A DNA stretch of 64,000 bases from Eubacteriales bacterium (GTDB lineage Bacteria > Bacillota > Clostridia > Oscillospirales > JAAYXM01), in contig JAZNNQ010000002.1 of assembly GCA_045580305.1 (NCBI GenBank), positions 1,787-65,786 on the forward strand. Direction: 5' to 3'. Under the pieces are notes generated by a model, which had not been told where the DNA came from, made no database searches, and saw nothing but the letters and a program-made list of their open reading frames with translations. The position numbers and the translations under genes were made by a program. This document shows positions 392-20,802 of this stretch, one piece after another (positions within the stretch are counted from its first letter, which is position 1; each line of letters opens with the position of its first letter).

Positions 392-420
392 TTGAAAAAG
401 TAATCCTTCGGTGCTATAAT
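392..420 (+). promoter_or_regulatory. sigma-A type promoter (TTGAAA-17 nt-TATAAT, extended -10 TGn)
   Basis: ttgaaa at 392-397, 17-nt spacer, tgc-tataat at 412-420. Near-perfect consensus. Confidence 0.65.
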
Positions 421-441
421 CATATATGCTAGATACTTAAG

Positions 442-461
442 TTACAATGGGTATATTGTAA
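442..461. promoter_or_regulatory. perfect palindrome TTACAAT-N6-ATTGTAA, candidate operator for the WYL regulator
   Basis: 7-bp inverted half-sites read directly, located just downstream of the predicted transcription start. Confidence 0.4.
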
Positions 462-571
462 TTTTGTGTTGCGAAGAATATGTTACGGAAAAAACATACC
501 CCCTGACATACTTTGCAACATAAGTAATTTAAGTGTCTAGCAACCTTAAGCGTCAGAGGGCGATGTTTTTC

Positions 572-605
572 ATGCGTGGTCCTTCGGGGCTGCGCATTTT
601 TTATT
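572..605 (+). terminator. intrinsic terminator / attenuator hairpin inside the leader of the WYL operon
   Basis: atgcgtggtcc-ttcg-ggggctgcgcat, a UUCG-capped stem, followed by TTTTTT (597-602). It lies 80 nt upstream of the regulator ATG. Confidence 0.5.
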
Positions 606-683
606 ATACTTTTTCAGGCGGACATACACCTGTCTGTGTAATTTTATATAATACAATAAAATTACGAAAAGGGATGATTTTCA

Positions 684-1661
684 ATGGAGAATACAAAACA
701 GTACAGAATACTTGAAATCTTTTTCAGAGGCCTGCGAGGCGAGGATATATCGGTTCGTAAGCTTGCTGATGAGTACAATGTGTCCACAAAAAGCGTAAGC
801 CGCAGTATAAGCGAGCTGAAAAACTTTTTAGCGGACAACCGGGAGCTTGTGGGCAATACCGAACTGGAATATTCCTATCAGGACAAGTGCTACCGCCTGT
901 ATATGGATGAATTTTTGAGCAGTAAGGAGCTTTTTGCACTTGTTGAGGTGATGATCGGCGCCCGGGCATTTTCCCGAGAGGAGCTTTTAGAGATTACCGC
1001 AAAATTAAAGCGCTTTACAACGCCGGGTGACTCGCGTATGCTGAGCGAGCTTATCCGTAAGGAGCTGTATCATTACCCCGAGGTAAAGCACGATTGCGAG
1101 CGTGTGCAGGACAACCTCTGGCAGCTGATAAACTGCATAACCGAAAAAAAGGAGATTTCCATCGATTATTATAAGATGGACAGAACCTTTGTAACCCATA
1201 GGGTCTACCCGCTGTCGGTAATGTTCACGGACTATTATTTTTACCTTATCGCCGCAAAAAGCGGTGATGTGAGCAAGCCGGTGTACTTCAGGGTTGACAG
1301 AATAAAATACATAACCGAACACAGAAAAAAGAGCGAAAGATACATACCCGAATTTGACGAAGGCGTGCTCAGAAAGAGGAGCCTTTTTATGTGGCCGGGC
1401 AAGCTCCGCACGATACGGTTTGAATTTTCCGGGCCGTCGGTACAAGCGGTGCTGGACAAGCTGCCCACCGCGAAAATTATTGAGCGTATGGGAAACAAGC
1501 GATACTTGATTGAGGCGGAAACCTACGGCGACGGAATTAAGATGTGGCTGCTCAGTCAGGGGTCATGGGTAAAGGTCACCTCGCCTGCGGACTTTGTAGA
1601 AGAAATGAAAACCGAGCTTAAAAAAATGCTAAAGCTTTATAAAAAAGGGGATAAAAAATGA
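684..1661 (+). CDS. HTH-WYL domain transcriptional regulator (BrxR/CapW-like class)
   Basis: 325 aa. N-terminal HTH (ISVRKLADEYNVSTKSVSRSISEL) and a WYL-type region (VYPLSVMFTDYYFYLIAA..VYFRVDRI). ATGA overlap with the next gene. Confidence 0.8.
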   Translation: MENTKQYRILEIFFRGLRGEDISVRKLADEYNVSTKSVSRSISELKNFLADNRELVGNTELEYSYQDKCYRLYMDEFLSSKELFALVEVMIGARAFSREELLEITAKLKRFTTPGDSRMLSELIRKELYHYPEVKHDCERVQDNLWQLINCITEKKEISIDYYKMDRTFVTHRVYPLSVMFTDYYFYLIAAKSGDVSKPVYFRVDRIKYITEHRKKSERYIPEFDEGVLRKRSLFMWPGKLRTIRFEFSGPSVQAVLDKLPTAKIIERMGNKRYLIEAETYGDGIKMWLLSQGSWVKVTSPADFVEEMKTELKKMLKLYKKGDKK

Positions 1662-2161
1662 TTAACAAAGAGGTTGAAAAGCAGTACAACGATGTCCGGA
1701 TGTCTTTGGAAAACGCGCTGGAGCAGGCAAGTTCCATAGAAGTTTCCGGCGATGAAGAGAATGTAGAATTATCTCAGATCATAAAGACCTTGGAAACACT
1801 CAACGACGGATTTAAAGAGGAAATTGAGAAGCTGAAAAACTCAAGTGAGTGGGACAAGTTCTGTATTGCCTTTTTCGGCGAAACAAACGCCGGCAAATCA
1901 ACCGTAATCGAGTCGCTTAGAATAATTTACGATGAGGAAACACGGCGTGCGGAAGCGCTGGCACAAGAGAAGAAATATCATAGCGCGCTGAGCGAGCATT
2001 GCCAAGAGTATGAAAAGCTCATAACATCTCTTGAGGAGGTAAATACCGCGCTTAAAAGCAAACGCGGTAAAAAAACCCAGAAGATATTAAGTCTTGCTTT
2101 TGGCGTTGTGGGCATAGCGATCGGACTGGTTCTTGCCAATGCGGGGATAATCACATGGTAA
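1658..2161 (+). CDS. tail-anchored coiled-coil protein carrying only the G1 P-loop of a dynamin-like GTPase (N-terminal piece of a split DLP)
   Basis: 167 aa. G1 motif FFGETNAGKSTVIESL flanked by coiled coil, with a C-terminal TM helix ILSLAFGVVGIAIGLVLANAGIITW. No G3 or G4 motif in this ORF. Confidence 0.7.
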   Translation: MINKEVEKQYNDVRMSLENALEQASSIEVSGDEENVELSQIIKTLETLNDGFKEEIEKLKNSSEWDKFCIAFFGETNAGKSTVIESLRIIYDEETRRAEALAQEKKYHSALSEHCQEYEKLITSLEEVNTALKSKRGKKTQKILSLAFGVVGIAIGLVLANAGIITW

Positions 2162-3780
2162 AGAATAAAACTAAAGCAGCGGTAGCGACCTTCATTGAAA
2201 ATGAGAAGGCGTTCTATGACTCACTGAAGAAAATAACAGCATTGGAAAGCGATCTGGGTTGTGTTGACGGAAAGATAATCGGTACGGGTCAGCCGGATTA
2301 TACTCAGGGCTCTACCGAGTATAAACTCGTCGTGGATAACAAAGACTTTTTGCTTATTGACATTCCGGGAATTGAAGGTAAAGAAAAGGAATATAAGAAG
2401 ATAATTTTAAACTCCTTGGAAAAAGCCCATTTGATTTTCTATGTTAACGGTTCGGGCAAAAAGGCGGAAAAGAAGACCCTTGAGAGAATAAAGGCATATA
2501 TGCACGACGGAACATCCGTATATGCACTTTTCAATGTGCATTGTAAGGCCAAGAAAAAAAGAGTCCCGGGCATAGACAAGTCATATACGGAAGAGCTTGC
2601 AGAGGCATATAAGGTGCAGGGCGAGATTGCCGCCCAGACCGAGGCGGAATTCAAGCCGTTTTTGGGTGAGAATTTTAAGGGTAGTGTTTTGCTAAACGGT
2701 CTGCTGTCTTTCTGCTCCTTGGCAGCGGATGGCGACGGAAGTACAACTATCGTCAACGATGAAGAAAAAACCTTGAGAAACGATCAAGTAAAGCTTTTAA
2801 AAGAATACTCGGGCGATTTTGAGCAAATGAGAAGGGAGAGCCACATCGAACTTGTAGAGGATGTTATTGCCCGACACATAGAGCATTTTGATGAATATAT
2901 TATCGAGGAAAACTTAAAAAAGCTGAGAGTGCGTCTTGCCGATACAGTCAGCAAGGTGGAAAGCCTGAAAAAGATCGAGAGCGAGAAAATTAAAAATTTC
3001 CTGAGCGACTATGACGATTTTGAACGCCACTGCAAAAATGCCAAATATGACTTCACCCACACCATACAGCGGATAGGAAGAACAGAGGTGGAATCCGCTT
3101 TTATCGGGGTGAGGGAGGAACTGTTTGATGCGGTTGAGAAAAACGGCGGTAAAATCAAGAAAGAGCAAATTTCTGAGATCTTTGACAAGAGGAAAAACAA
3201 AATAACCAAGGATATAGAAAAGGCGGTAAGCGATAAAGTCAACGAAGCGGCACACGACTACCAGAGCGCGGTCAAAGAGGCTGAAAAAAGACTTTTAAAG
3301 GATTTGCAGCGGGAGCAGAAAAAATTTAAAATCGCGATGCAGGCAAATGCACTAAATTTGGATACTTCTTTTTTAAATGCCCTGAAATTTTCATTTAAAG
3401 ACTTTACCGACGGCGCGATGAAAATCGGTAGATATATTTGGGATATGACTATTGCAATCCCTATCCCGATAATCGGAAGCATTGTCGGACTGTTAGTAGG
3501 ACTATTTGATGTTATATGGGGATGGATTATCTCCAAAGAAAAGCGAATTAACAGGGCAAAGGCGAAGCTGCAAGAGGCTCTCAACGATAAGATAGACGAA
3601 ATAGTGGATGAGATTAAGAAAAGCATAAAAAAGCATAAGCCGGAGGAACAGATCAAACGGGCTCATACCGAAATTCAAAACGGCATTGAGCGACAGCGTG
3701 CGACTCTGCGCGATATTGAAAAACTGCTTGATGTGGTAACATTAAATTTAAACAAAAGCGCTAAGGCGTTAGACAGGTAA
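2155..3780 (+). CDS. dynamin-like protein lacking a P-loop (G2/G3 + stalk + membrane hairpin; C-terminal piece of a split DLP)
   Basis: 541 aa. The start overlaps the previous stop (ATGGTAA). G3-like FLLIDIPGIEG, a long helical region, and a hydrophobic hairpin IAIPIPIIGSIVGLLVGLFDVIWGWII. Confidence 0.7.
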   Translation: MVKNKTKAAVATFIENEKAFYDSLKKITALESDLGCVDGKIIGTGQPDYTQGSTEYKLVVDNKDFLLIDIPGIEGKEKEYKKIILNSLEKAHLIFYVNGSGKKAEKKTLERIKAYMHDGTSVYALFNVHCKAKKKRVPGIDKSYTEELAEAYKVQGEIAAQTEAEFKPFLGENFKGSVLLNGLLSFCSLAADGDGSTTIVNDEEKTLRNDQVKLLKEYSGDFEQMRRESHIELVEDVIARHIEHFDEYIIEENLKKLRVRLADTVSKVESLKKIESEKIKNFLSDYDDFERHCKNAKYDFTHTIQRIGRTEVESAFIGVREELFDAVEKNGGKIKKEQISEIFDKRKNKITKDIEKAVSDKVNEAAHDYQSAVKEAEKRLLKDLQREQKKFKIAMQANALNLDTSFLNALKFSFKDFTDGAMKIGRYIWDMTIAIPIPIIGSIVGLLVGLFDVIWGWIISKEKRINRAKAKLQEALNDKIDEIVDEIKKSIKKHKPEEQIKRAHTEIQNGIERQRATLRDIEKLLDVVTLNLNKSAKALDR

Positions 3781-3798
3781 AAACAGGAGGGAAAGAAA

Positions 3799-5490
3799 GT
3801 GTACGATTTTAAACAGCATACCGAGAACAAAAACGAGCTTCTTGCCAGAATGGACAGCACAAAAGCAAAAATAATTGAGCTTGAAGAATTTGGAATTGAT
3901 ATAAGCGAATCCGTACAGAAAATCGAGAGCGCGAAAGAGATGGTGCGCAACGACAAGATTTCCATCGTATTGGTAGGTGCATTTTCCGACGGTAAAACCA
4001 GTGTTGCGGCAGGTTGGCTCAACGAAAAAATGGACAATATGAAGATTGATACCGATGAATCTTCGGATGAGATATTATGCTACACACCAAGCTCCATTCC
4101 CGAGGGTTGTCAGATTGTTGATACTCCCGGTTTGTTTGGCGACAAAAAAGAAAACGACGGAACGATCACTCTGTCTGAAAAAACAAAAAAATTCATAAGC
4201 GAGGCAAATATAGTTCTTTATGTGGTCACAGCTAAAAACCCACTTAAGGACAGCCACAAGGAATTTGTCAAAAAACTTTTAAAGGACTTAAATAAGCTGC
4301 CCACAACGATTTTTGTCATCAACCGCATGGACGATGTTGCGGATGTGACCGACGAGGAAGAGTATGCCAAACTCGCTAAGATAAAGTCGGATAACCTCCG
4401 CAGTAAGCTTCTTGAATGTGGATTAACCCCTGCAGAGGTTGAAGAGGTTAAAATCGCGTGCATAAGCGCGGCGCCCGACGGTGCAGGCATAGAGATGTGG
4501 AAGAACGACAGAGAAGAGTATTTAAGCAGATCCCATCTGCCTGCGTTGGAAAAGTTTACCAATGATATACTTGAAAATTCCCGCGAACATCTGATAGCAA
4601 AAACCGGCTGTGATGTTCTCAATGCGGAAATTAAGAAAAACTTATCCGCAATTGAAGTTATCGCCAACGAAATAGAAGTTGAAATTCTACCTGTACAGAA
4701 GGAAACCATTCGTCGCAACACCAAGGATTTGCAGCAGCTTCGCAAACGCTTATTGAGTAGCAGAAAAGCAATTCGCGAAGAACTCTACACACTGGAAAAG
4801 AGAAAACTTTCAGCAATAAGAGCGGCGGCGATGGAAAACTTCAAAGATGTCTTAGAGGAGGAAATTGGACTTCTTCCCCAAAATGAAGGCTATCGCTTAA
4901 ATCGGGAAATCAATGATATTTTCGAGAACTATTGTGATAAACACGGCAATTGGGCATGTGAACTGGGCAACTCATTTCAAACTGAATATAACAAGCAAAA
5001 TGATATGATGCAATCCATCCTTTCAAAAAGCGGAGGAGCTCTGAGGGGTGCCGGAAAGCTTGGCACAGATGTGTTCAAAAAAGGTATTTTTGCGGGTCGA
5101 GATCTGCTGGGCAAGCTTGGTAAGACAATAAAGTTCAAGCCCTGGCAGGTTACAAAAATGGCAAATTTCGCAACAAAAGCTCTGCCTGTTATCGGTGCCG
5201 GTATTGATATCGTGATGGGCATAGTAGATAATGTGACGGCAAAGAAGCGGAACAAGGAATTTGAAGCAAACAAGGATGAATTGAAAATGGAGATTGCAGC
5301 ATTATTCAAAACCGTTCAAGACTCTTTGGACGACGAGCAGGCATACTTGAATGATTTTGCACCCGGCTACAATGAACTTCTTGAGAAAATTGCTGAGGAC
5401 GAAGAGACTATGAAGGTAATGGAAAAACAGCTTTCAGGCTTTAAGAAGTGGGAAAAGAATGTTATCGATGTTGACTTTACGGTCTGCTAA
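3799..5490 (+). CDS. bacterial dynamin-like GTPase (complete G domain)
   Basis: 563 aa. GTG start 8 nt after AGGAGG. G1 LVGAFSDGKTSV, G3 IVDTPGLFG, G4 VINRMDDV, a helical stalk, and a paddle-like stretch KALPVIGAGIDIVMGIV. Confidence 0.8.
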   Translation: MYDFKQHTENKNELLARMDSTKAKIIELEEFGIDISESVQKIESAKEMVRNDKISIVLVGAFSDGKTSVAAGWLNEKMDNMKIDTDESSDEILCYTPSSIPEGCQIVDTPGLFGDKKENDGTITLSEKTKKFISEANIVLYVVTAKNPLKDSHKEFVKKLLKDLNKLPTTIFVINRMDDVADVTDEEEYAKLAKIKSDNLRSKLLECGLTPAEVEEVKIACISAAPDGAGIEMWKNDREEYLSRSHLPALEKFTNDILENSREHLIAKTGCDVLNAEIKKNLSAIEVIANEIEVEILPVQKETIRRNTKDLQQLRKRLLSSRKAIREELYTLEKRKLSAIRAAAMENFKDVLEEEIGLLPQNEGYRLNREINDIFENYCDKHGNWACELGNSFQTEYNKQNDMMQSILSKSGGALRGAGKLGTDVFKKGIFAGRDLLGKLGKTIKFKPWQVTKMANFATKALPVIGAGIDIVMGIVDNVTAKKRNKEFEANKDELKMEIAALFKTVQDSLDDEQAYLNDFAPGYNELLEKIAEDEETMKVMEKQLSGFKKWEKNVIDVDFTVC

Positions 5491-5528
5491 TTCGTGTAAA
5501 AAAATATACATAAAGGGGAGAAAGTACA

Positions 5529-6002
5529 ATGGGTAAAATGAAAGCAATAGGCAAGGGAATTGCCAAGGCGTGCAAATGGGCGTACAAGCATTCTAAGGAA
5601 ATCGGTACGGCGGCTAAAGTGGGCTTTGCGGCTTATGATGAAATCCGCAAAACGCGCCATAAAAATAAGGAAACCAAGCCGGAGCTGGAAGAAAGCGGCG
5701 CAACAACCACGGAAAACACGGTTGTCTATGACAAAAGTGCCGTCCTGGCAATAGCAAATCTGGAAAAACGCTGCGAAGAAAAGTGGAAAGCCCTGGAGGA
5801 GTTAAATGCCGACAGGGAAAAGGAAATTTTCGCATTGAGCAAGGATGTCGAGGGCCACATCCAGGAGCTTCGCGATGCGATTGAAACCTTGATAGCCGAA
5901 CAAGAAAAGATCAACAAGAAGCAGAGCCTTGGATTAACGCTGATAAGCGTTATAGGAGGTGTCGGTATAGTAGCGGCCATTATACTGGCTATTGTTCTGT
6001 AA
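5529..6002 (+). CDS. tail-anchored coiled-coil membrane protein, unknown function
   Basis: 157 aa. Basic amphipathic N-terminus, coiled-coil middle, C-terminal TM LTLISVIGGVGIVAAIILAIVL. RBS GGGGAG. Confidence 0.6.
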   Translation: MGKMKAIGKGIAKACKWAYKHSKEIGTAAKVGFAAYDEIRKTRHKNKETKPELEESGATTTENTVVYDKSAVLAIANLEKRCEEKWKALEELNADREKEIFALSKDVEGHIQELRDAIETLIAEQEKINKKQSLGLTLISVIGGVGIVAAIILAIVL

Positions 6003-6016
6003 AAGGGGGATATAAT

Positions 6017-6229
6017 ATGTCAGCAATTGTTGTTAATGTAAAACATATTAAGAAATGCGCCTTTTGCAGAAATTGGTATGATCCTACCAACAGCGCGATT
6101 TCTCCAAAATCCCCGTCAATCGGGTTGTGGGAGATAAAGGACATAAATCAGAAAAACACCTGTACTAAGAAAAACATCCCAATGGCGGCAAACGCTTTTT
6201 GCAGTTCTGATTTTGAGAGTAAAATATAG
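6017..6229 (+). CDS. small Cys-containing protein, unknown function
   Basis: 70 aa. RBS AGGGGG 6 nt upstream. CAFC motif plus two further Cys. Last gene before the terminator. Confidence 0.4.
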   Translation: MSAIVVNVKHIKKCAFCRNWYDPTNSAISPKSPSIGLWEIKDINQKNTCTKKNIPMAANAFCSSDFESKI

Positions 6230-6274: not shown

Positions 6275-6310
6275 AAAATCCTCCGAAAACCCGGGGGATT
6301 TTATGTTTAT
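6275..6310 (+). terminator. probable rho-independent terminator closing the WYL-dynamin operon
   Basis: aaaatcctcc-gaaaaccc-gggggatttt stem-loop followed by T-rich sequence. Confidence 0.5.
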
Positions 6311-6336
6311 ACGGACACCTGTATGTCTGACTTGGG

Positions 6337-6345
6337 TGCTATAAT
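6337..6345 (+). promoter_or_regulatory. extended -10 element (TGcTATAAT)
   Basis: tgctataat read directly, about 27 nt upstream of the next ATG. The -35 is weak. Confidence 0.35.
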
Positions 6346-6371
6346 ATGTATGTAAAAGGGAGGTGAAGCGA

Positions 6372-6707
6372 ATGCTGAAATACGAAATCGCAAAAAGCAT
6401 ATACGAAGAAATCAAGGACAAAGTGGCTCATGACACGAGGGAAGGAGTAGAGGGCTTTTATAAGGATTTTTTAGTCAGCGCTTGTGAGTATGCAAAAAAT
6501 CGCATCGACTGGTCCTTTATGAATGGGGAAGAGAAACTGGAGGACGATGCGAGCAGATCAGTAAAGCATGACGCCTTTATGTCAAGACTTAAAGCGGTTT
6601 GCAGAGCGTTACAAATTGACGGAATTGAAGAACTTATGCCGGACAGAAAAACAAAAGGTGACTTTGCCTGTTACATAGCAATGTTCCTGGCATTGGAACA
6701 GCGTTAA
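6372..6707 (+). CDS. hypothetical helical protein
   Basis: ATG at 6372 lies 9 nt after GGGAGG. The track ORF begins at GTG 6363. No recognisable motif. Confidence 0.5.
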   Translation: MLKYEIAKSIYEEIKDKVAHDTREGVEGFYKDFLVSACEYAKNRIDWSFMNGEEKLEDDASRSVKHDAFMSRLKAVCRALQIDGIEELMPDRKTKGDFACYIAMFLALEQR

Positions 6708-6719
6708 GAAAGGAAAAAT

Positions 6720-7316
6720 ATGCCCAAAAACTGGAAGTATATCAAAAAACTGTTGGAGAAGGAGTTTCTCTGCGAAAAACTTAAGGGTCACATAACCTAT
6801 GACCTGACCGATTACAGACCTGCGCCCTGGTATCAGCAGCATTTCATTATGAAATACGATGATGAGGTTCTGCTTTGTGCATCGCAGCCCGACCGCAAGT
6901 GGGACAAGCGCCATCCATATCAGCATACCTATTGGAAGCAGCGGGATGTAATCGCCGAAAAGCTCCGCGAAAAATATGACCTGTCGGAGGAGCAGCTTGC
7001 GGATGTTGTTGAAGATACAATCGAAGAGGTGGACAGAATAAATGCCCATTACGACGGGGTGTTTGGCGTCAAGGACATTGTTGATCTTATCGGCGAGTAT
7101 CTTCATTCGGATATTGAAGCAAGTCTCGGATATCGGCAGGACTACTTCATTAACGCCCTCGCCGTACTTGACAGACGCTGCGGCAAGCGCAGGCTCGAGA
7201 AGCTTGCAAAAACGGACTGTGCGGGATTTCCCGAGTGGTTAAGGCGGATATGCAGGATACGCTTTGAAGCGGAAGGTGTAAGCTACAACAAATATTTTGA
7301 TATTGCAAGAATTTAA
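6720..7316 (+). CDS. hypothetical protein
   Basis: 198 aa, 12-nt gap from the previous gene. No motif I can assign. Confidence 0.5.
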   Translation: MPKNWKYIKKLLEKEFLCEKLKGHITYDLTDYRPAPWYQQHFIMKYDDEVLLCASQPDRKWDKRHPYQHTYWKQRDVIAEKLREKYDLSEEQLADVVEDTIEEVDRINAHYDGVFGVKDIVDLIGEYLHSDIEASLGYRQDYFINALAVLDRRCGKRRLEKLAKTDCAGFPEWLRRICRIRFEAEGVSYNKYFDIARI

Positions 7317-7329
7317 AGGAGTGTATTTT

Positions 7330-7881
7330 ATGTTAGGAAAAATCTTTTCATTACTGGTTGGTTTAGGTATCGGTACCGCGACCGTGAAGCTGATTTCGGA
7401 TAAAATTGCCGATAATGCAAAAAGCAATATTTTATCAATGCTCTACGCGGCAAGAAAACAATACGATGCAGGCGAACTCACCCAGCTGCAGTATGATGAA
7501 ACCCTGAAAATATTACATAAATCCGTAAGCGAAAAGGATAGAAAAGCGATAGACGAGGAGCTGGAAGAGAGGTATTTCATAGCTGAGGATATGTTAAATA
7601 CCCATATCGAGCTATTGGACGAGATCGAGGAGGCGGGAGCTGCCTCGCTGCAGGAATACATTGAAAAGCACCCGAATGATGCCTATATAAACGGCATTGT
7701 GGGCCTGGATGATTATGTATATGAAGAAGGTGAAAAGTCCCCGGAGGAGGCAGAACGCCTTTTGAAAAAATACATATATAATGTCGGAGAAGAGAAAAAA
7801 GAGCTGATAGCAGAGGTAAAGATGCTCGGCGGCGACATTGACAGAGTACAGCGCATATTTGATAAAATAACATTTGAATAA
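7330..7881 (+). CDS. N-terminally membrane-anchored acidic coiled-coil protein
   Basis: ATG 7330 lies 8 nt after AAGGAG. TM MLGKIFSLLVGLGIGTATVKLI followed by Glu-rich helices. Confidence 0.55.
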   Translation: MLGKIFSLLVGLGIGTATVKLISDKIADNAKSNILSMLYAARKQYDAGELTQLQYDETLKILHKSVSEKDRKAIDEELEERYFIAEDMLNTHIELLDEIEEAGAASLQEYIEKHPNDAYINGIVGLDDYVYEEGEKSPEEAERLLKKYIYNVGEEKKELIAEVKMLGGDIDRVQRIFDKITFE

Positions 7882-7888
7882 ATAATAA

Positions 7889-7930
7889 AGGGAGCGCCCG
7901 ACAAATCATCGGGCGCCCCCTTTTGTTTTA
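7889..7930 (+). terminator. rho-independent terminator
   Basis: GC-rich stem gggagcgcccga / tcgggcgccccc followed by ttttgtttt. Confidence 0.85.
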
Positions 7931-8015: not shown

Positions 8016-11000
8016 ATGGCATATGATATTTTTATATCCTATAAGGAAAGCGACGGCGCGCAATATGCAGAAAAGTTGAAAAAAGGATTGACAGGCAAAG
8101 GGTATAAATCTGTTTATTTTAACAAAACTGATAAGGACGAAGAAGGAAGTTTTATTACGAGACTTGAAAACGCGATCAAAACTTGTAAAGTTTTTATCTT
8201 TGTGTTGAGCGAAAACGCTAAACAATCTATATTAAATAAAACTGCAGAGAAGGGATCAAAAGAGTTTGATTATGTTTGTTGGGAACTTAGCAGGGCGCGT
8301 GAGTATAGTAAGCATGTGCTGATTTTAAACACAGGCTGTTCTTTTGATCCGTACACCGATAAATATAAATATGATGATATGAAGGATATCGAAATATATA
8401 CAGGAAGAGACTGCAAATCATCTTTGCTTGAAGCGCAGACATTTGAAATGGATAAGATACTTGATGAGCAAGGGGATTTGCTGAAAAGTGCGGGCGTTGA
8501 CATTTCTTTGCGAATGACACTTCGCAGGGTAATTTATGGAGTTTTATCTCTTAAATACAAAGCAAAGAATCCAGCTGGTAATTATGTTGATAAGGAATGT
8601 ATATTCAATAAACAGGCGTTGGAGGCATTGTGTGAATACATAACAAAAGATAACAGTATTACTACAGAAATAGAAAACTGTGCAACAGCGGAAAAATTAA
8701 CTGAATATATGAATAATACCAATCATGAAATGCTACAGGGATTTTGTGAACACTTTGAAATGGAGCCGGGCGGAAAAGAGCAAAAAGCAATTAATATCAA
8801 AATTAAAGACATTGCTATGTGTAAGTTGTATGAAATGGATTGTTGGGAGGTACTCGAGTATTTATATAATTCATATCTTATGATGAATTTTCACGAAGAC
8901 TATGCTTCTATAAGAAAGTTTTATTTAAACAAAACAATAAGTGATTACATTCTTGCGCTTGCTTGGAACAGATATTTTATTAAAAATAAAGATAAAAGAC
9001 GGGAACTTGTTTACAAAATTATTCCCGAACTTATAAGAACCCACAATCATGCGCAGAGATATTTGTTTGCTTTGATAGAAAAGGGAAGATTTGAAAGCGG
9101 GGATGAATGGCTTTTTTGCGATATTGGCGAAGAACACTCGAGCCAGATAAAAATTTTGTTTGGTGAATACTATCGGGATGTTTTTAATACCGATATGGCC
9201 AGATCAACATTTACAGAACGGCTTTTTATGTGGTTTAATCGTAATAAAGATAGTTTTGTTGATTTCTGTTTACAATTAATAAAAAAGTATAAATGCAGTG
9301 ATGCGGAAATATGGAATTTTTTGATTGTAAAATGTGATACGCTGGCAAATAAAAACAGTCTGGAGATTTTAAAAGGATATTTTTCAGAGTATGTAAAACA
9401 AAAAAACTATAAAGTTATCTTTAGAATGATTGAACAAGGGTTAAATAAATTTGTTTTTTTTAATGGTAACCAAGAAAAAGACCAAAAGTTATTTGACTTG
9501 TTATATGGGGCAACAACGAATAGAGAAGTTGTTGAAAAATATGGTCACGGATTAGCGAAAGCATTTTATACATTTTGGAAAAATGATCAGCATACAGAAG
9601 AAATCAAACAAATTACATATGAAAAACACCTCGATAAGATTGTTTCATTTAAAAATCTGTACAATATAGTTGAAGGAATTACCCTTGAAAACCCCGGTAT
9701 TCCCAAGAAAAAGTTTGAAGAAATTCTTCGAGAAACCGTAAACGAGTCGGACGATAAAATTTTAGAGGACAAACAATTTTTGTATGTATTAAATAACATA
9801 TGGGTTACAGACCAAAATGCAGATCTTTACAACAGGGCCGTGAGTAGATTGCTTGATGTATGTACATACTTAAACAGATATTATGGATTTACGGTACTTC
9901 TGTTTGTAAGATATGGAAGAAAAAGCTTTAATGAAGCAAACAGAAAAAGATTATTTGAATGCATAAAAGATTTTGCAGATAAATATGGAGCTGATGTAAA
10001 ACTTGAAGATAAACATTACGATAAAATGTTTAAAATTCTTGAGAATCATTATTTTGACGATATAAGAACAGATTTCAAAATGAAGGTGTTCGACAATGAA
10101 GGAGTAGCACCGGAAACTAAATTGAATATCTTTAACCTTTGGTACGATGTCGGGTTAAAAGAACGACTTAAAGAGAAAATAAAAGAAAATACCGACGAAA
10201 ACAACGAGACACAAAAGGCTTTTAAAATATTGTTTAAAGCCAAAAATAAGAGATGGAAAAATTTACAGGGCTGGAAGGCTGTCCATCTGTATCCTCTCAT
10301 TGAAGAACTTCTTGATTTTGAGAATTTTGTTGAGCTGAAGCCAGATATTCAGAAAAATTTAATACACAATGTAAAAACAAAGAAAGAGTTTTATCCGAAA
10401 ATCAAAGCGCTGTTAGATTCGTTTAAAGTGAATGAGTATGCATGGAATAGCTTAAGCGCTTCCGTAAAAATTGCATTTGTTATGCATATCAATAAAATCA
10501 TTGAAAAGTTTGAAGAAATAGATTTCATTAACTGCTTTGCGGAAAGTGTTATCGAGGATGTAGCATCCATGCGTAAGCGGCGCGGCGAAGTTGAAACGGA
10601 ATATGGAATCAGAGAAGAAACATTAATGTATCATATGATTTTGTTGTATCGAAAAAAACCATGGAAAACAGCAAGATTGTGTGCTGCGGCACAAGTAAAA
10701 TGGTATGGTCAACTTAAATATGAAGATGAAAAGGATGACTACAACAAGAAGAATATGCTCTTTGAACGCCGCGAGTTGTTTAAAACGGCAGTGTCAAATC
10801 CTTGCATCAAGGACTTGACCTGTTATTTAGCGAGAGCGAACTATTCTGTTGTGCGTCAAAATTCATCTGAAATAGCTAACGAGCCGGATGTTTTGAAAGA
10901 TTTTACAACGCTCTTCAGAAACATAATCGGAGGAAGGATTCCGCTGTGGTTTGGCGCGGAAGTGGCAGCGCCGATAAAAACCAAAATGCAGTGGATAGAA

Positions 11001-11591
11001 AATATTGATTTTGAAAGTGTTGTTAATGACTTCAAAAAACGCGATAGCGATCAAGGAAAGTCGTTGGAGGATCAAATACTTGATGCAGCCCAAAAAGGTA
11101 GAGACAATTTTGAAGAAAAGGCTGTTGATTTCGAGGAAGAAGCCGAGAAAATTATAGTATGGAAAAATTCAGAGTGTGATGAAAAGATATATGTTCTAAC
11201 ACGAAAAAGGCTTTTTGCAAGATATTTTGACAACAGCATATGGTATGAAGGGCTGAAGTTTAATGCCTTTCTGTTTATACCACAGATGTGCGAAGAGGTG
11301 TCTTTTGTTTCAACAAGAGATGTATTTGATGTTCGCGTGGAAATAGAGACGGTTAGAAAAGCAATAGAAGAAAAATTCAAATACGCTCTCGTTGAATTTG
11401 ATCCCGCAAAACCCAAATTTGACCGGTTTGTTAAAGGTTGTAGAATTGATAAAACTGTCCAAGAACCAATTAATCAGTTCTATAACGCATATTTGAATTA
11501 TTTAAAACTGGGAGCAATAAAACCTGAAATTGCTGAAGCATTTTCAGACTATGTTAGGCATATGAAACGCACAATTGAAAATATGAAATAG
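8016..11591 (+). CDS. TIR-domain protein with ~1050-aa helical C-terminal region of unknown function
   Basis: 1191 aa. N-terminus MAYDIFISYKESDG..VFIFVLS..DYVCWELSRA is a TIR signature that includes the conserved Glu. I found no Walker A motif. RBS AAGGAG. Confidence 0.75.
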   Translation: MAYDIFISYKESDGAQYAEKLKKGLTGKGYKSVYFNKTDKDEEGSFITRLENAIKTCKVFIFVLSENAKQSILNKTAEKGSKEFDYVCWELSRAREYSKHVLILNTGCSFDPYTDKYKYDDMKDIEIYTGRDCKSSLLEAQTFEMDKILDEQGDLLKSAGVDISLRMTLRRVIYGVLSLKYKAKNPAGNYVDKECIFNKQALEALCEYITKDNSITTEIENCATAEKLTEYMNNTNHEMLQGFCEHFEMEPGGKEQKAINIKIKDIAMCKLYEMDCWEVLEYLYNSYLMMNFHEDYASIRKFYLNKTISDYILALAWNRYFIKNKDKRRELVYKIIPELIRTHNHAQRYLFALIEKGRFESGDEWLFCDIGEEHSSQIKILFGEYYRDVFNTDMARSTFTERLFMWFNRNKDSFVDFCLQLIKKYKCSDAEIWNFLIVKCDTLANKNSLEILKGYFSEYVKQKNYKVIFRMIEQGLNKFVFFNGNQEKDQKLFDLLYGATTNREVVEKYGHGLAKAFYTFWKNDQHTEEIKQITYEKHLDKIVSFKNLYNIVEGITLENPGIPKKKFEEILRETVNESDDKILEDKQFLYVLNNIWVTDQNADLYNRAVSRLLDVCTYLNRYYGFTVLLFVRYGRKSFNEANRKRLFECIKDFADKYGADVKLEDKHYDKMFKILENHYFDDIRTDFKMKVFDNEGVAPETKLNIFNLWYDVGLKERLKEKIKENTDENNETQKAFKILFKAKNKRWKNLQGWKAVHLYPLIEELLDFENFVELKPDIQKNLIHNVKTKKEFYPKIKALLDSFKVNEYAWNSLSASVKIAFVMHINKIIEKFEEIDFINCFAESVIEDVASMRKRRGEVETEYGIREETLMYHMILLYRKKPWKTARLCAAAQVKWYGQLKYEDEKDDYNKKNMLFERRELFKTAVSNPCIKDLTCYLARANYSVVRQNSSEIANEPDVLKDFTTLFRNIIGGRIPLWFGAEVAAPIKTKMQWIENIDFESVVNDFKKRDSDQGKSLEDQILDAAQKGRDNFEEKAVDFEEEAEKIIVWKNSECDEKIYVLTRKRLFARYFDNSIWYEGLKFNAFLFIPQMCEEVSFVSTRDVFDVRVEIETVRKAIEEKFKYALVEFDPAKPKFDRFVKGCRIDKTVQEPINQFYNAYLNYLKLGAIKPEIAEAFSDYVRHMKRTIENMK

Positions 11592-11665
11592 TTTTGTCAT
11601 CTAAATTGTGCACTAATTCTATAATGAACTCAATATATGATCGTATATATTGAGTGGAGGGTACT

Positions 11666-12577
11666 ATGTCAAAATATGCAGTTAGTGATGAAGGTATAAA
11701 AGCTCTTAAAATAACAGCATCTAATGTTTTAAATGCCGTTGAACGGATATTGAATGCTACAAACTCTATAGAATCTGTTGCTGACGAGCATGTTGAAACT
11801 TTAGGACCACACTATGCTTCGTTAGTCGCTGCAATCACAGAGATACGCGAAGCGCAAAGACAAGCAGTTCAACCTGCATATGACATATCCGAAACATTGA
11901 ATGATATTGCCGATGCCTACCAAGATATAATAGATGATGATAAAATTCTTGCAGGCAACAGCGGAACATCTGCAGCAGGTGGTTTGCAGGGCGGAGGAAG
12001 CGACGGCAGTAACAAAGGTGGCAAAGTTGCGTCGTTTTTTGGGAAGATATTTGGCAGCACCGGCGCTTCAGGAAGCCGGTTTGGAGAGTTTAATGTGGAC
12101 TCAAACGGGTTTGTAAAGGGTAATGGATATGACTGTTTTATAAATGACTGGAATAGTTACGGGAAAGTGGAATTTGAAACAGACACGAAAAGTTATTCCG
12201 GGAAAAATGTTACTGAAACGATTGACCCCGGATTGATAGCGGGATTTCGGGTAAGAGAATATGACATCAAGAACCCGGGAACATTTTGGAGCCAACATCA
12301 AACGGGAGGCACTGCGGAGTCGTTTAAAGAAGTGGCTTCGCATATCCCGGAGGTAAAGAGTGAACTGGCTAAAGGCCGCTCTTTGGTTGATTTGGAGAAC
12401 GATCCGGTATTGGGCCCGTGTGCTTCAGTTTATTTTGATCCTGAGAATATGGTGAAAGTAATAAAGTGCGAAGGTTACTATGAATTCCAAGGCAATGGGC
12501 GCCATAGGATTCTTGCGGCAAGAGCCGCGGGGTATGATATTCCGGTGAAGATTGTCGGCAGCCGCAAAAGAAAATAA
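11666..12577 (+). CDS. helical N-domain / Gly-rich linker / ParB-Srx-like C-domain protein (polymorphic-toxin-like architecture)
   Basis: ATG 11666 follows GGAGGG. About 95 aa of helix, then the linker GNSGTSAAGGLQGGGSDGSNKGG, then C-terminal YYEFQGNGRHRILAARAAGYDIPVKIV (ParB/sulfiredoxin-type GxxRxxA motif). Confidence 0.45.
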   Translation: MSKYAVSDEGIKALKITASNVLNAVERILNATNSIESVADEHVETLGPHYASLVAAITEIREAQRQAVQPAYDISETLNDIADAYQDIIDDDKILAGNSGTSAAGGLQGGGSDGSNKGGKVASFFGKIFGSTGASGSRFGEFNVDSNGFVKGNGYDCFINDWNSYGKVEFETDTKSYSGKNVTETIDPGLIAGFRVREYDIKNPGTFWSQHQTGGTAESFKEVASHIPEVKSELAKGRSLVDLENDPVLGPCASVYFDPENMVKVIKCEGYYEFQGNGRHRILAARAAGYDIPVKIVGSRKRK

Positions 12578-12596
12578 ATCGCAAAAAGAAGACACA

Positions 12597-12816
12597 ATGG
12601 ACGAAACAAATAACGATGATATAAATTCTTGAGGTTATTCGCGATATAGAAAAATTTGATTTTGTTATATTTGGTGAGATTCTTATATCATATTGCATTG
12701 CCTACGAAAAATCGCAATTCAACGGTTCTTGTTTCAAAGAGTACATCTATCCACCGACAGCAACGGAGTTTCTCATTGAGGAGAGACAAATGAAGGAAAA
12801 GAGCTTTTGTCCCTGA
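12597..12816 (+). pseudogene. possible frameshifted small ORF (candidate cognate/immunity gene remnant)
   Basis: ATG 12597 gives 11 codons and then TGA. The +1 frame stays open for 61 more codons (EVIRDIEKFDFVIFGEILISYCIAYEKSQFNG..) with no start codon of its own. Confidence 0.2.
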
Positions 12817-12860
12817 CCAGACATAAAGTTTGTCTAATTATTCAAAAAAGGAGAAAATAT

Positions 12861-18045: not shown

Positions 18046-18282
18046 TATACACAAGCGACTATTGGTTAGGGATTTTAAAGAAAACGAAAATGCTGACAGG
18101 AGTTGAATGAATTGAGATGCACGATAAATGTAATAAAATTGGCAGATTGCTGATGGCATCAATAATAACTGCGAAGAAAGAACGAAAAATCAGTGATCTT
18201 TAAATCATGTGCTGATTTTACAATGTATCCAATCTAAGATGAATTTGGGCAACTTTAAATTTGACCTGAAAGAAGGATTATC

Positions 18283-20718: not shown

Positions 20719-20802
20719 TGAGCATATTAACCTAAAGGTGCGCTTGCGGGGCGTATGACTTGATTCTGCCGCAAGGAACACAAATTTTTTGGAGTGAAAG
20801 CA

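What the first reader, a model, noticed from the sequence alone, without database searches (positions are those of the whole stretch)
684..6229. WYL-switched operon of two dynamin-like GTPases plus two small membrane/Cys partners: candidate undescribed membrane-acting defence system
Six co-directional genes have junctions of -4, -7, +18, +38 and +14 nt, and a hairpin at 6275-6310 closes the unit. The genes are:
- an HTH-WYL regulator;
- a 167-aa coiled-coil protein with a dynamin-type P-loop and a C-terminal TM anchor;
- a 541-aa protein with the remaining G-domain motifs, a stalk and a hydrophobic hairpin;
- a complete 563-aa dynamin-like protein (GxxxxGKT, DTPG, NRMD) with a paddle-like stretch;
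- a 157-aa tail-anchored coiled-coil protein;
- a 70-aa Cys protein.
Tandem bacterial dynamin-like proteins are established (DynA, LeoABC, and the LeoA/LeoBC-type anti-phage dynamin system, called Eleos in DefenseFinder as far as I recall). HTH-WYL proteins of the BrxR/CapW class are established repressors of defence operons. I do not know a described system that combines a WYL switch, a G domain split after G1, and two tail-anchored or Cys-rich accessory proteins. The operon abuts a TIR-rich island, which supports an immune role by guilt by association.
Basis: partly seen in the sequence, partly recalled or inferred. Interest (0 to 1): 0.8.

Follow-up and report, generated by a model that had tools for sequence, protein, structure and literature searches.

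The report
WYL-regulated LeoCBA (Eleos) dynamin operon
This is a gut-Clostridia copy of the already known Eleos/LeoABC dynamin-like anti-phage system. It sits under a WYL-type regulator, and the one unfamiliar part is a small, widely conserved four-cysteine protein that travels with such regulators and with dynamin operons.

Summary
The six ORFs, their junctions and the closing hairpin are all real.

- **Core genes.** The three central genes are LeoC, LeoB and LeoA: PADLOC E = 3e-41, 8e-111 and 3e-179, and LeoA matches PDB 4AUR at 5e-94. The "G domain split after G1 plus TM anchor" is the leoC/leoB arrangement described for ETEC in 2014. It is common in gut Clostridia (256 LeoB clusters).
- **Regulator.** WYL regulators next to Eleos occur elsewhere, for example WYL-LeoBC-LeoA on a Chryseobacterium plasmid, and in a published WYL survey.
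- **157-aa protein.** It is an orphan and is absent from the closest relative loci.
- **70-aa protein.** It belongs to a real family of 232 clusters with four conserved Cys and a net basic charge. It follows leoA in four Leo lineages. It also sits beside at least ten other dynamin-operon types and beside WYL genes that head exchangeable defence cargo, so it is not Leo-specific.
- **New regulatory observation.** A palindrome plus -10 motif (GGACA-N6-TGTC-N12-TATAAT, no -35) lies before the WYL gene and again just after the 70-aa gene, and is conserved in relatives. Its geometry matches PafBC-type WYL activators.

Verdict: a new variant of a known kind, of moderate interest.

The parts
620..652 (+). 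Candidate regulator box plus -10 element: GGACATACACCTGTC, then 12 nt, then TATAAT. There is no -35 hexamer. It lies 32 nt upstream of the WYL start codon.
   Evidence: The same composite motif sits upstream of the WYL gene in L001 (6755) and L097 (3309). Across window+L001+L097+L018 there are 8 instances, against 0.003 expected in 300 dinucleotide shuffles.
684..1661 (+). HTH-WYL-WCX transcription regulator (325 aa), the first gene of the operon. Its stop codon overlaps the leoC start by 4 nt.
   Evidence: Pfam WYL 7e-9, WCX 5e-6, HTH_11 1.6e-4. PADLOC WYL 7e-25. It is 75% identical in L001 and L097. A family profile hits PafBC at 1.7e-9, DriD at 7e-8, BrxR at 3.5e-5 and CapW at 1.6e-3.
1658..2161 (+). 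LeoC (167 aa): N-terminal coiled coil, P-loop GETNAGKS (K80) and a C-terminal membrane anchor (140-167).
   Evidence: PADLOC LeoC PDLC03843, E = 3e-41. It matches LeoBC model positions 19-98 only. The P-loop is invariant and a hydrophobic tail is present in 8 lineages. TM scan.
2155..3780 (+). LeoB (541 aa): the rest of the split G domain (DIPG), a helical stalk and a hydrophobic paddle hairpin (428-461).
   Evidence: PADLOC LeoB PDLC03842, E = 8e-111. It matches LeoBC model positions 99-567. There are 256 homologous clusters, all about 540 aa. Hydropathy.
3799..5490 (+). LeoA (563 aa): a complete dynamin-like GTPase (GAFSDGKT with K66, DTPG, NRMD) with a helical neck/trunk.
   Evidence: PADLOC LeoA, E = 3e-179. 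NCBIfam NF041922, E = 2e-145, above its cutoff. Pfam DLP_helical 5e-54. ETEC LeoA crystal structure 4AUR, E = 5e-94, aligned over residues 3-536.
5529..6002 (+). 157-aa tail-anchored coiled-coil protein (TM 132-157). It is a strain-specific orphan, co-transcribed by position with a good RBS.
   Evidence: Only itself is found among 5.8 billion clusters. No family hit. Absent between leoA and the 70-aa gene in L001, L018 and L097/98. BLASTP against LeoC gives E = 0.11.
6017..6229 (+). 70-aa basic Cys4 protein ('Cys70'; C14, C17, C49, C62) and the last gene of the transcription unit. It belongs to a conserved, unnamed family.
   Evidence: 103 close clusters and 232 clusters at 50% identity. The four Cys are conserved at 93-99% and the median net charge is +6. 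AF2 mean pLDDT 86, all-beta. It follows leoA in L001, L018, L097/98 and L100. No hit in Pfam (only a chance-level match, E = 0.022), NCBIfam, PADLOC or the PDB.
6275..6302 (+). Hairpin (11-bp stem) that closes the WYL-to-Cys70 unit.
   Evidence: Terminator-like scan; sequence.
6313..6345 (+). Second copy of the regulator box plus -10 element: GGACACCTGTATGTC, then 12 nt, then TATAAT. It lies immediately after the hairpin and before the next gene.
   Evidence: Equivalent second boxes lie after Cys70 in L001 (12306), L018 (2539) and L097/98 (8618/5297).
6363..7881 (+). Downstream three-gene module: 114 aa, SF0329-family 198 aa, and 194 aa with an N-terminal TM. It probably belongs to the same regulon through the second box, and it differs between relatives.
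   Evidence: ORFs. SF0329 PF25753 3e-27 and NF049912 5e-25. TM at 8-34. No homologues in related loci. Strong bidirectional terminator at 7887-7923.

Best explanation
The locus is an Eleos-type (LeoC-LeoB-LeoA) dynamin-like anti-phage operon of a gut Clostridium (order Eubacteriales or similar), led by an HTH-WYL-WCX regulator. It sits inside a ~22-kb defence island.

**Shown by sequence**
- WYL, leoC, leoB, leoA, the 157-aa gene and the 70-aa gene form one tightly packed unit between a box-plus-(-10) promoter (620-652) and a hairpin (6275-6302).
- LeoC carries the P-loop and a membrane anchor. LeoB carries the rest of the G domain, the stalk and a hydrophobic paddle. LeoA is a complete soluble dynamin-like protein.
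- An identical box-plus-(-10) architecture recurs right after the hairpin (6313-6345).

**Inferred**
1. The WYL protein binds the palindromic boxes and switches both promoters on in response to an infection or DNA-damage cue sensed by its WYL domain. ssDNA is the ligand in PafBC, DriD and SiwR.
2. The promoters lack a -35 element, and the TGTC half-site sits exactly 12 nt from the -10, as in PafBC promoters. Activation is therefore slightly favoured over BrxR-like repression.
3. LeoC and LeoB then reconstitute a membrane-tethered GTPase. It pairs through its G domain with LeoA and remodels or seals the cytoplasmic membrane, delaying or preventing productive phage lysis. The precedent is B. subtilis DynA.
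4. The 157-aa tail-anchored protein is a strain-specific add-on of unknown value.
5. The 70-aa Cys4 protein is a conserved, portable companion co-expressed at the operon's end. It more likely acts at the level of sensing or regulation, or as a generic adaptor, than as a dedicated dynamin subunit.
For: **Identity of the core**
- PADLOC: LeoC 3e-41, LeoB 8e-111, LeoA 3e-179.
- NCBIfam LeoA/HP0731, 2e-145.
- PDB 4AUR LeoA, 5e-94.
- The split point falls at LeoBC model position 98/99.
- The ETEC description of leoC (P-loop plus a 22-aa anchor) and leoB matches.

**Conservation of the leoC-leoB-leoA triplet**
- It is present in 8 lineages.

**Defence context**
- TIR/NACHT/STAND neighbours here.
- Type I R-M, AbiJ and KAP NTPase, or patatin, or integrative elements next to relatives.

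**Eleos as an anti-phage system**
-.

**Regulator**
- Domains.
- WYL-LeoBC-LeoA on plasmid NZ_CP033935.
- Eleos is listed among WYL-flanked systems.

**Boxes**
- (8 observed against 0.003 expected).
- BrxR also has two boxes in one island.
- PafBC consensus tGTCgg(N10)tA(N3)T without a -35.
- SiwR binds a palindrome.
- The WYL profile is closest to PafBC and DriD.

**DynA mechanism**
-.
Against: - No experiment links this particular operon to phage resistance.
- ETEC LeoABC was first characterised as a vesicle/toxin-secretion factor.
- One relative (L107) sits among ordinary metabolic genes.
- The Eleos mechanism itself is unpublished beyond homology.
- Binding of the WYL protein to the boxes is inferred only from position, palindromy and conservation. 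The motif was defined post hoc on the window and then confirmed in relatives.
- Activator versus repressor is unresolved. BrxR and CapW also hit the profile (3.5e-5 and 1.6e-3), and a repressor bound at -39 to -25 would also block RNA polymerase.
- The system-level DefenseFinder and PADLOC rules could not be run.
Confidence: 0.72

Rival explanations
1. This is an undescribed six-gene membrane-acting defence system in which the tail-anchored 157-aa protein and the 70-aa Cys protein are integral, co-evolving subunits of the dynamin machine.
For: - All six genes are tightly packed with good ribosome-binding sites (RBSs), and one hairpin closes the unit.
- Cys70 follows leoA in four Leo lineages and diverges in step with them: 43% in L100, where LeoB is 43% and LeoA 55%.
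- In L063/L065 its stop codon overlaps a dynamin start.
- DLP genes are about 9-fold denser within 6 kb of Cys70 than further away.
Against: - The 157-aa gene has no homologue anywhere and is absent in L001, L018 and L097.
- Cys70 is absent from four Leo lineages (L099, L101, L106, L107) and from plasmid Eleos loci.
- It occurs with helicase+PIN, NERD-helicase, RCC1 and unknown cargo, and with no defence genes at all.
Confidence: 0.15
2. WYL and Cys70 form a portable regulatory 'frame'. Cys70 is a small Cys4 metalloprotein that works with the WYL regulator as co-sensor, anti-repressor, co-activator or nucleic-acid binder. It does not work with the dynamins. The pair brackets or precedes whatever defence cargo is inserted.
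For: - In one species-level backbone, DNA is 98-99% identical through WYL, Cys70 and a 38-aa Cys mini-ORF, and then diverges into unrelated cargo: 3 DLPs, SF1 helicase+PIN, or an unknown pair. A Zn-ribbon-RCC1 cargo follows an ~83%-identical version of the same flank.
- WYL lies within 6 kb in 10 of 27 non-redundant groups.
- WYL and Cys70 identities correlate (r = 0.69 over 9 non-redundant pairs).
- A regulator box follows Cys70 in three lineages.
- Cys70 is basic (median +6) with a highly conserved surface motif, WYDPTNSAI.
Against: - The correlation could simply reflect shared host phylogeny.
- 7 of 27 groups have DLPs but no WYL, and 10 of 27 have neither.
- L100 has Leo plus Cys70 with an XRE-type regulator instead of WYL.
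- No structural homologue indicates DNA or protein binding.
Confidence: 0.3
3. The operon is not an immune system. It is a stress-inducible membrane-maintenance or vesiculation module, as proposed for ETEC LeoABC and mycobacterial IniA/IniC, and it merely resides next to defence genes.
For: - ETEC LeoAB disruption reduces secretion of periplasmic and outer-membrane proteins.
- IniA/IniC and DynA act in membrane stress.
- WYL regulators of the PafBC/DriD/SiwR type control DNA-damage responses rather than phage defence.
- L107 lies among metabolic genes.
Against: - LeoA+LeoBC was validated as an anti-phage system, according to the Eleos preprint citing earlier work.
- Most relatives sit in defence or mobile contexts.
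- The operon lies in a variable island between a permease gene and an adenine deaminase gene, together with four TIR proteins.
Confidence: 0.13

Closest known systems
LeoABC of enterotoxigenic E. coli H10407 (Michie et al. 2014, PMC4159319; LeoA structure PDB 4AUR)
   Same: - Same gene order, leoC-leoB-leoA.
- LeoC is the P-loop fragment with a C-terminal membrane anchor.
- LeoB is the remainder of the G domain plus a paddle.
- LeoA is a full DLP, aligned over its full length to 4AUR at E = 5e-94.
   Different: - The ETEC locus is on a pathogenicity island next to tia.
- mentions no WYL regulator and no 70-aa Cys protein there.
- ETEC is Gram-negative, with a proposed periplasmic location. Here the host is Gram-positive-type Clostridia.
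- LeoC is shorter here (167 versus 206 aa).
Eleos anti-phage system (LeoA + LeoBC; DefenseFinder name; the PADLOC-DB v2 library used here holds LeoA, LeoB, LeoC and LeoBC models)
   Same: All three core proteins hit the Eleos models strongly. The locus lies in a defence island.
   Different: - Eleos is described as a two-gene system with a fused LeoBC. Here LeoBC is split.
- The operon also carries a regulator, an orphan membrane protein and the Cys70 gene, none of which matches any PADLOC model.
HTH-WYL-WCX regulators: BrxR/CapW (defence repressors) and PafBC/DriD/SiwR (ssDNA-triggered activators)
   Same: - Same three-domain architecture.
- First gene of the operon it presumably controls.
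- Palindromic boxes at two promoters, like BrxR's R-BOX1/2.
- TGTC-N12-TAnnnT geometry without a -35, like PafBC.
   Different: - A single-sequence search finds no solved relative. Only the family profile does, and it ranks PafBC and DriD above BrxR and CapW.
- The mode of action (activation versus repression) and the ligand are untested.
Bacillus subtilis DynA (two-headed dynamin-like protein in phage defence)
   Same: - Two dynamin-like modules act together at the membrane.
- Paddle-type hydrophobic membrane-binding element.
- A protective role against phage through membrane stabilisation and delayed lysis.
   Different: - DynA is a single fused polypeptide, expressed constitutively.
- It has no TM-anchored split fragment, WYL regulator or Cys protein.
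- Sequence similarity to it was not tested here.

Membership tests
Eleos / LeoABC dynamin-like system | A LeoA-family dynamin-like GTPase (G1-G4 motifs plus a DLP helical domain) | tested here: met
   PADLOC LeoA 3e-179. NF041922 scores 485.6 bits against a cutoff of 325. PF18709 5e-54. 4AUR 5e-94.
Eleos / LeoABC dynamin-like system | A second DLP (LeoBC) encoded immediately upstream, fused or split into LeoC (P-loop plus membrane anchor) and LeoB (rest of the G domain, stalk and paddle) | tested here: met
   LeoC 3e-41 covers LeoBC model positions 19-98. LeoB 8e-111 covers LeoBC model positions 99-567. TM anchor at 140-167 and hairpin at 428-461. This matches the ETEC description.
Eleos / LeoABC dynamin-like system | Conserved adjacency and order leoC-leoB-leoA across relatives | tested here: met
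   Eight lineages have the triplet at 43-66% identity.
Eleos / LeoABC dynamin-like system | System-level call by the DefenseFinder or PADLOC rules | not testable with these tools
   Only the PADLOC HMM library could be scanned. The rule engines are not available.
Eleos / LeoABC dynamin-like system | GTPase-dependent protection against phage | not testable with these tools
   This needs a wet-lab experiment. The only support is by homology.
BrxR/CapW-type WYL defence repressor | wHTH-WYL-WCX architecture, encoded at the head of a defence operon | tested here: met
   Pfam HTH_11/GntR-like, WYL and WCX. 4-nt overlap with leoC.
BrxR/CapW-type WYL defence repressor | Closest solved relatives are BrxR or CapW | tested here: not met
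   phmmer gives no PDB hit. The profile ranks PafBC 1.7e-9, DriD 7e-8, BrxR 3.5e-5, CapW 1.6e-3 and a second BrxR 0.11.
BrxR/CapW-type WYL defence repressor | Inverted-repeat operator near its own promoter, and repression relieved on infection | tested here: inconclusive
   A palindromic box is present and conserved at two promoters. Its position (TGTC 12 nt from the -10, no -35) fits PafBC-type activation as well as repression. No binding or expression data exist.
PafBC/SiwR-type WYL activator (sigma adaptation) | Target promoters with a canonical -10, no -35, and a regulator element centred near -26 (tGTCgg-N10-tAnnnT) | tested here: met
   9 of 10 motif instances are GGACA-N6-TGTC-N12-TA(T/G)A(A/G)T. 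No -35-like hexamer is seen on reading the two window promoters. Consensus.
PafBC/SiwR-type WYL activator (sigma adaptation) | ssDNA binding by the WYL domain, and activation of RNA polymerase | not testable with these tools
   This needs biochemistry.
Cys4 metal-binding mini-domains (zinc ribbon / HiPIP-like) for the 70-aa protein | Four conserved metal-ligand cysteines | tested here: met
   C14, C17, C49 and C62 are conserved at 93-99% in 121 representatives. C14, C17 and C62 are invariant, and C49 is nearly so, in A1/A2.
Cys4 metal-binding mini-domains (zinc ribbon / HiPIP-like) for the 70-aa protein | Significant sequence or fold match to a known zinc-ribbon or HiPIP family | tested here: not met

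The most novel reading that the evidence does not exclude
The WYL regulator and the 70-aa Cys4 protein together form a previously unrecognised, portable two-gene control module of gut Clostridia. The module frames exchangeable defence cargo, with dynamin operons the commonest cargo. The WYL protein would activate -35-less promoters in a PafBC-like manner at boxes on both sides of the frame. Cys70 would be a metal (Zn or Fe-S) co-sensor or adaptor needed for induction or for effector function.
Probability: 0.25. Interest if true: 0.65.

Novelty: new variant of a known kind. Interest (0 to 1): 0.42.

Why it matters
Eleos is a validated anti-phage system with a poorly understood mechanism and eukaryotic relatives (GIMAPs, dynamins). 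This locus offers three things.

- **A natural on-switch.** It gives a compact Firmicute version with testable operator boxes, which could be used to find what triggers Eleos.
- **A conserved small partner.** The 70-aa Cys4 family (232 clusters, no annotation) recurs next to many different dynamin operons and WYL regulators. It is a cheap candidate for a missing sensor or adaptor.
- **A possible activator mode.** The promoter geometry suggests that some defence-associated WYL proteins are PafBC-like activators rather than BrxR-like repressors. That would broaden the current repressor-centred picture of WYL control of immunity.

None of this overturns current knowledge. The core system is known.

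Tried and rejected
1. **The 157-aa protein as a conserved component: rejected.** It has no homologue, no exact-match contig, no family hit, no significant similarity to LeoC, and is absent from the closest loci.
2. **Cys70 as a Leo-specific subunit: rejected.** Sampling of 80 metagenome loci shows many non-Leo and non-dynamin contexts.
3. **Cys70 on plasmids or phages.** No PLSDB hit and only one IMG/VR contig.
5. **Large unknown cargo proteins as divergent dynamins (c9 about 1000 aa, c6, the 811-aa and 467-aa proteins).** No P-loop was found in them and jackhmmer did not recruit them. The four that were scanned (c9, c6, the 811-aa and the 467-aa protein) had no Pfam hit, and c9, c6 and the 811-aa protein had no PADLOC hit.
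6. **The structured 424-610 element.** It has no Rfam family and is not repeated in the window or in related loci.
7. **Literature searches.** The search 'WYL + dynamin' returned only noise. 'SF0329' returned nothing relevant.
8. **The genome-contig scan with single LeoA** found only one relative, so wider Leo contexts had to come from LeoB homologues.
9. **Supplementary tables of the WYL survey** are not held, so the number of WYL-Eleos pairs could not be read.

Full report
**1. Observation**

ORF listing confirms six co-directional genes at 684-1661, 1658-2161, 2155-3780, 3799-5490, 5529-6002 and 6017-6229. The junctions are -4, -7, +18, +38 and +14 nt. A hairpin at 6275-6302 follows the last gene.
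- P-loop GETNAGKS and a C-terminal anchor (140-167) in the 167-aa protein.
- DIPG and a hydrophobic hairpin (428-461) in the 541-aa protein.
- GAFSDGKT, DTPG and NRMD in the 563-aa protein.
- A C-terminal TM (132-157) in the 157-aa protein.
- Four Cys in the 70-aa protein.

The neighbouring island holds four TIR-domain proteins between 8016 and 23226, at 31-39% GC. It is bounded by an amino-acid permease fragment (47-337) and an adenine deaminase gene (23232-).

**2. What the core is**

The three central proteins are LeoC, LeoB and LeoA.
- PADLOC-DB has separate models for each, and they hit at 3e-41, 8e-111 and 3e-179.
- Against the fused LeoBC model, the 167-aa protein covers positions 19-98 and the 541-aa protein covers 99-567. 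The split therefore falls right after the P-loop helix.
- NCBIfam's LeoA/HP0731 model is passed (485.6 bits against a cutoff of 325).
- The ETEC LeoA crystal structure 4AUR aligns over the full length at 5e-94.

Michie et al. (2014) described exactly this arrangement. LeoC is the N-terminal GTPase fragment with the P-loop and a 22-residue C-terminal membrane anchor. LeoB is the remainder with the paddle. Both lie upstream of leoA, and the split is conserved in diverse bacteria. Eleos is the DefenseFinder name for LeoA+LeoBC as an anti-phage system.

It is also common. LeoB has 256 homologous clusters of about 540 aa in gut metagenomes. Eight sampled lineages keep leoC-leoB-leoA with an invariant LeoC P-loop and a hydrophobic tail.

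**3. The regulator**

The first gene encodes an HTH-WYL-WCX protein. WYL next to Eleos is not unique to this locus:
- A Chryseobacterium plasmid carries WYL-GTPase(LeoBC)-LeoA.
- L099 has a WYL gene heading a larger cluster that ends in leoCBA.
- A 2025-26 survey of defence-associated WYL proteins names Eleos among the flanked systems.
- More distant Leo loci have XRE-type or no regulators.

The new observation is a composite motif: GGACA-N6-TGTC, then exactly 12 nt, then a TATAAT-like hexamer, with no -35.
- It lies 32 nt before the WYL start (620-652) and again just after the hairpin behind the 70-aa gene (6313-6345).
- The same pair of sites flanks the homologous units in L001 and L097/98. 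L018, a short contig that lacks the WYL end, carries the site after Cys70.
- There are 8 instances in about 93 kb, against 0.003 expected in dinucleotide shuffles. All are on the operon strand.
- Two boxes in one island have a precedent in BrxR.
- The geometry, however, equals the PafBC consensus tGTCgg(N10)tA(N3)T of -35-less 'sigma adaptation' promoters. It also resembles the SiwR palindrome.
- A profile of 15 homologues of this WYL protein ranks PafBC (1.7e-9) and DriD (7e-8) above BrxR (3.5e-5) and CapW (1.6e-3).

I therefore regard 'WYL switch' as right. 'BrxR/CapW-class repressor' is unproven, and activation is slightly more likely.

The second box implies that the regulon continues into 6363-7881. 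That stretch holds a 114-aa protein, an SF0329-family protein and a 194-aa TM protein, and a strong terminator follows at 7887-7923. This module differs in each relative.

**4. The two small proteins**

*The 157-aa tail-anchored protein* is an orphan.
- A search of 5.8 billion clusters returns only itself.
- It hits no family.
- In L001, L018 and L097/98, leoA is followed directly, 35-53 nt later, by the 70-aa gene.
- It mimics LeoC's tail (coiled coil plus a Gly-rich TM), but the similarity is not significant (E = 0.11).

*The 70-aa protein* is a real, constrained family.
- It has 103 close clusters and 232 clusters at 50% identity. Almost all are stand-alone proteins of 55-100 aa.
- C14, C17, C49 and C62 are conserved at 93-99%. 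W20, D22, P23, P30 and W38 are also conserved, and the median net charge is +6.
- With 98 sequences, AF2 gives an all-beta model at pLDDT 86.
- The best fold matches are weak and not significant. They are HiPIP-like Fe-S mini-proteins, and small 'zinc finger' or 'zinc ribbon' proteins of gut phages.

**5. What the 70-aa protein travels with**

I fetched 80 metagenome loci and one viral locus, called and clustered their genes, and marked DLP-like and WYL-like proteins.

The gene follows leoA in the window, L001, L018, L097/98 and L100. In L100 it is 43% identical and was not called as a gene.

It also adjoins at least ten other dynamin-operon architectures that are only weakly Leo-like. One example is WYL-98aa-DLP820-169aa-DLP608-DLP599-136aa-110aa-Cys70. 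Another is the C. beijerinckii locus Cys68-DLP552-DLP580-DLP543. In some cases the start and stop codons overlap.

DLP genes number 67 in the 775 kb within 6 kb of Cys70, against 3 in the 320 kb further out.

Cys70 is not dynamin-specific, though. In one species-level backbone, DNA is 98-99% identical through WYL, Cys70 and a 38-aa Cys-rich mini-ORF, up to that ORF's stop codon. Beyond it the cargo is three DLPs, an SF1 helicase plus a PIN protein, or two unknown ~1000-aa proteins. A Zn-ribbon-RCC1 protein follows a more divergent (~83% identical) version of the same flank.

Among 27 non-redundant Cys70 groups with at least 3 kb on both flanks:

| Neighbour within 6 kb | Groups |
|---|---|
| DLP | 12 |
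| WYL | 10 |
| Either | 17 |
| Neither | 10 |

This set includes two groups fetched via LeoB, which biases it slightly towards DLPs.

WYL and Cys70 identities correlate (r = 0.69 for 9 non-redundant pairs). Shared phylogeny could explain that.

Four Leo lineages lack Cys70. In two of them an IS66 element or a group II intron fragment lies right after leoA.

**6. Mechanism**

*Shown:* the gene content, the operon structure, the conserved boxes, the membrane anchors and the GTPase motifs.

*Inferred from the named families:*
1. The WYL protein senses an infection or DNA-damage cue. ssDNA is the ligand in PafBC, DriD and SiwR. It then switches both promoters.
2. LeoC and LeoB reconstitute a membrane-tethered GTPase that pairs with LeoA (the heterotypic pairing proposed).
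3. GTP-driven membrane remodelling or sealing limits phage release, as shown for DynA.
4. Cys70 is co-expressed as the last gene. Its portability argues for a generic sensing, regulatory or adaptor role rather than a role as a dedicated dynamin subunit.

**7. Comparison and verdict**

Membership of Eleos/LeoABC is met on every sequence-testable criterion. The phage phenotype and the system-level calls could not be tested.

The locus differs from described Eleos in four ways:
- The co-transcribed conserved Cys4 protein.
- The strain-specific tail-anchored protein.
- The box-flanked architecture.
- The possibly activator-type WYL regulator.

This makes it a new variant of a known kind, not a new system. 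Interest is moderate (0.42). The specialist value lies in the Cys70 family, the WYL/Cys70 cargo-exchange frame and the PafBC-like promoters. It does not lie in the split dynamin.

Noticed in passing
window 392-610: A strong sigma-70-like promoter (392-420: TTGAAA, 17 nt, TATAAT, with TG) is followed by a ~180-nt highly structured stretch (nested inverted repeats). The stretch ends in a terminator-like hairpin at 572-597. RNA fold is -68.6 kcal/mol, z = -7.3. It has no Rfam match and is absent from relatives and from the rest of the window. It may be a small RNA or a leader upstream of the WYL promoter.
   Followed up: partly
window 8016-23226: Low-GC (31-39%) island with four TIR-domain proteins: 1191 aa (TIR); 1132 aa (TIR-NACHT-beta-propeller); 811 aa (weak TIR); 810 aa (TIR-AAA-TPR). 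It also holds 307-aa and 629-aa proteins with no family hit. The island is bounded by adenine deaminase at 23232. The WYL-type box does not occur in it.
   Followed up: partly
L044-L065 (e.g. L057 8878-10361): A defence hotspot in one gut species. The DNA is 98-99% identical through a Ser/Thr kinase (PASTA), unknown 895-aa and 482-aa proteins, WYL and Cys70. Identity ends exactly at the stop codon of a 38-aa Cys-rich mini-ORF (MRHHHSVVRPLFCPYCHKPYCVDFFGRCVHCKRIMPVF). Unrelated cargo of more than 10 kb follows.
   Followed up: partly
L002-L010, L045, L048, L063, L078, L085, L089: Operons of three dynamin-like proteins (550-830 aa) that are only weakly Leo-like (PADLOC 1e-6 to 1e-29 for the two architectures scanned, L006 and L010). 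They include coiled-coil proteins of 110-250 aa and Cys70. They may be distinct, undescribed multi-dynamin systems.
   Followed up: partly
P0109 (772 aa, from the representative search): The only fusion found. It has three tandem Cys70 domains at the C-terminus of a protein whose N-terminal 580 residues have no Pfam match. Its genomic context could not be looked up.
   Followed up: no
L001 11979-12239: An 86-aa ORF directly after Cys70 carries two repeats of KWQCxxCGxTQTTxGLRP...FCGKSxDHxHKW. This is another small Cys-rich protein, analogous in position to the 38-aa mini-ORF of the L057-type loci.
   Followed up: no
L044, L046, L050, L055, L057, L058, L074, L094 (cargo after Cys70): A recurrent cargo of a ~270-aa protein plus one or two ~1000-aa proteins. 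It has no Pfam or PADLOC hit and no Walker A motif. It is the commonest non-dynamin cargo downstream of WYL-Cys70.
   Followed up: no
L099 1497-10358: A WYL regulator followed by an AIG1/IIGP-like small GTPase, an LRAT-family protein, a patatin phospholipase and then leoC-leoB-leoA. This may be a larger composite membrane-targeting cluster. An IS66 element lies directly downstream.
   Followed up: no
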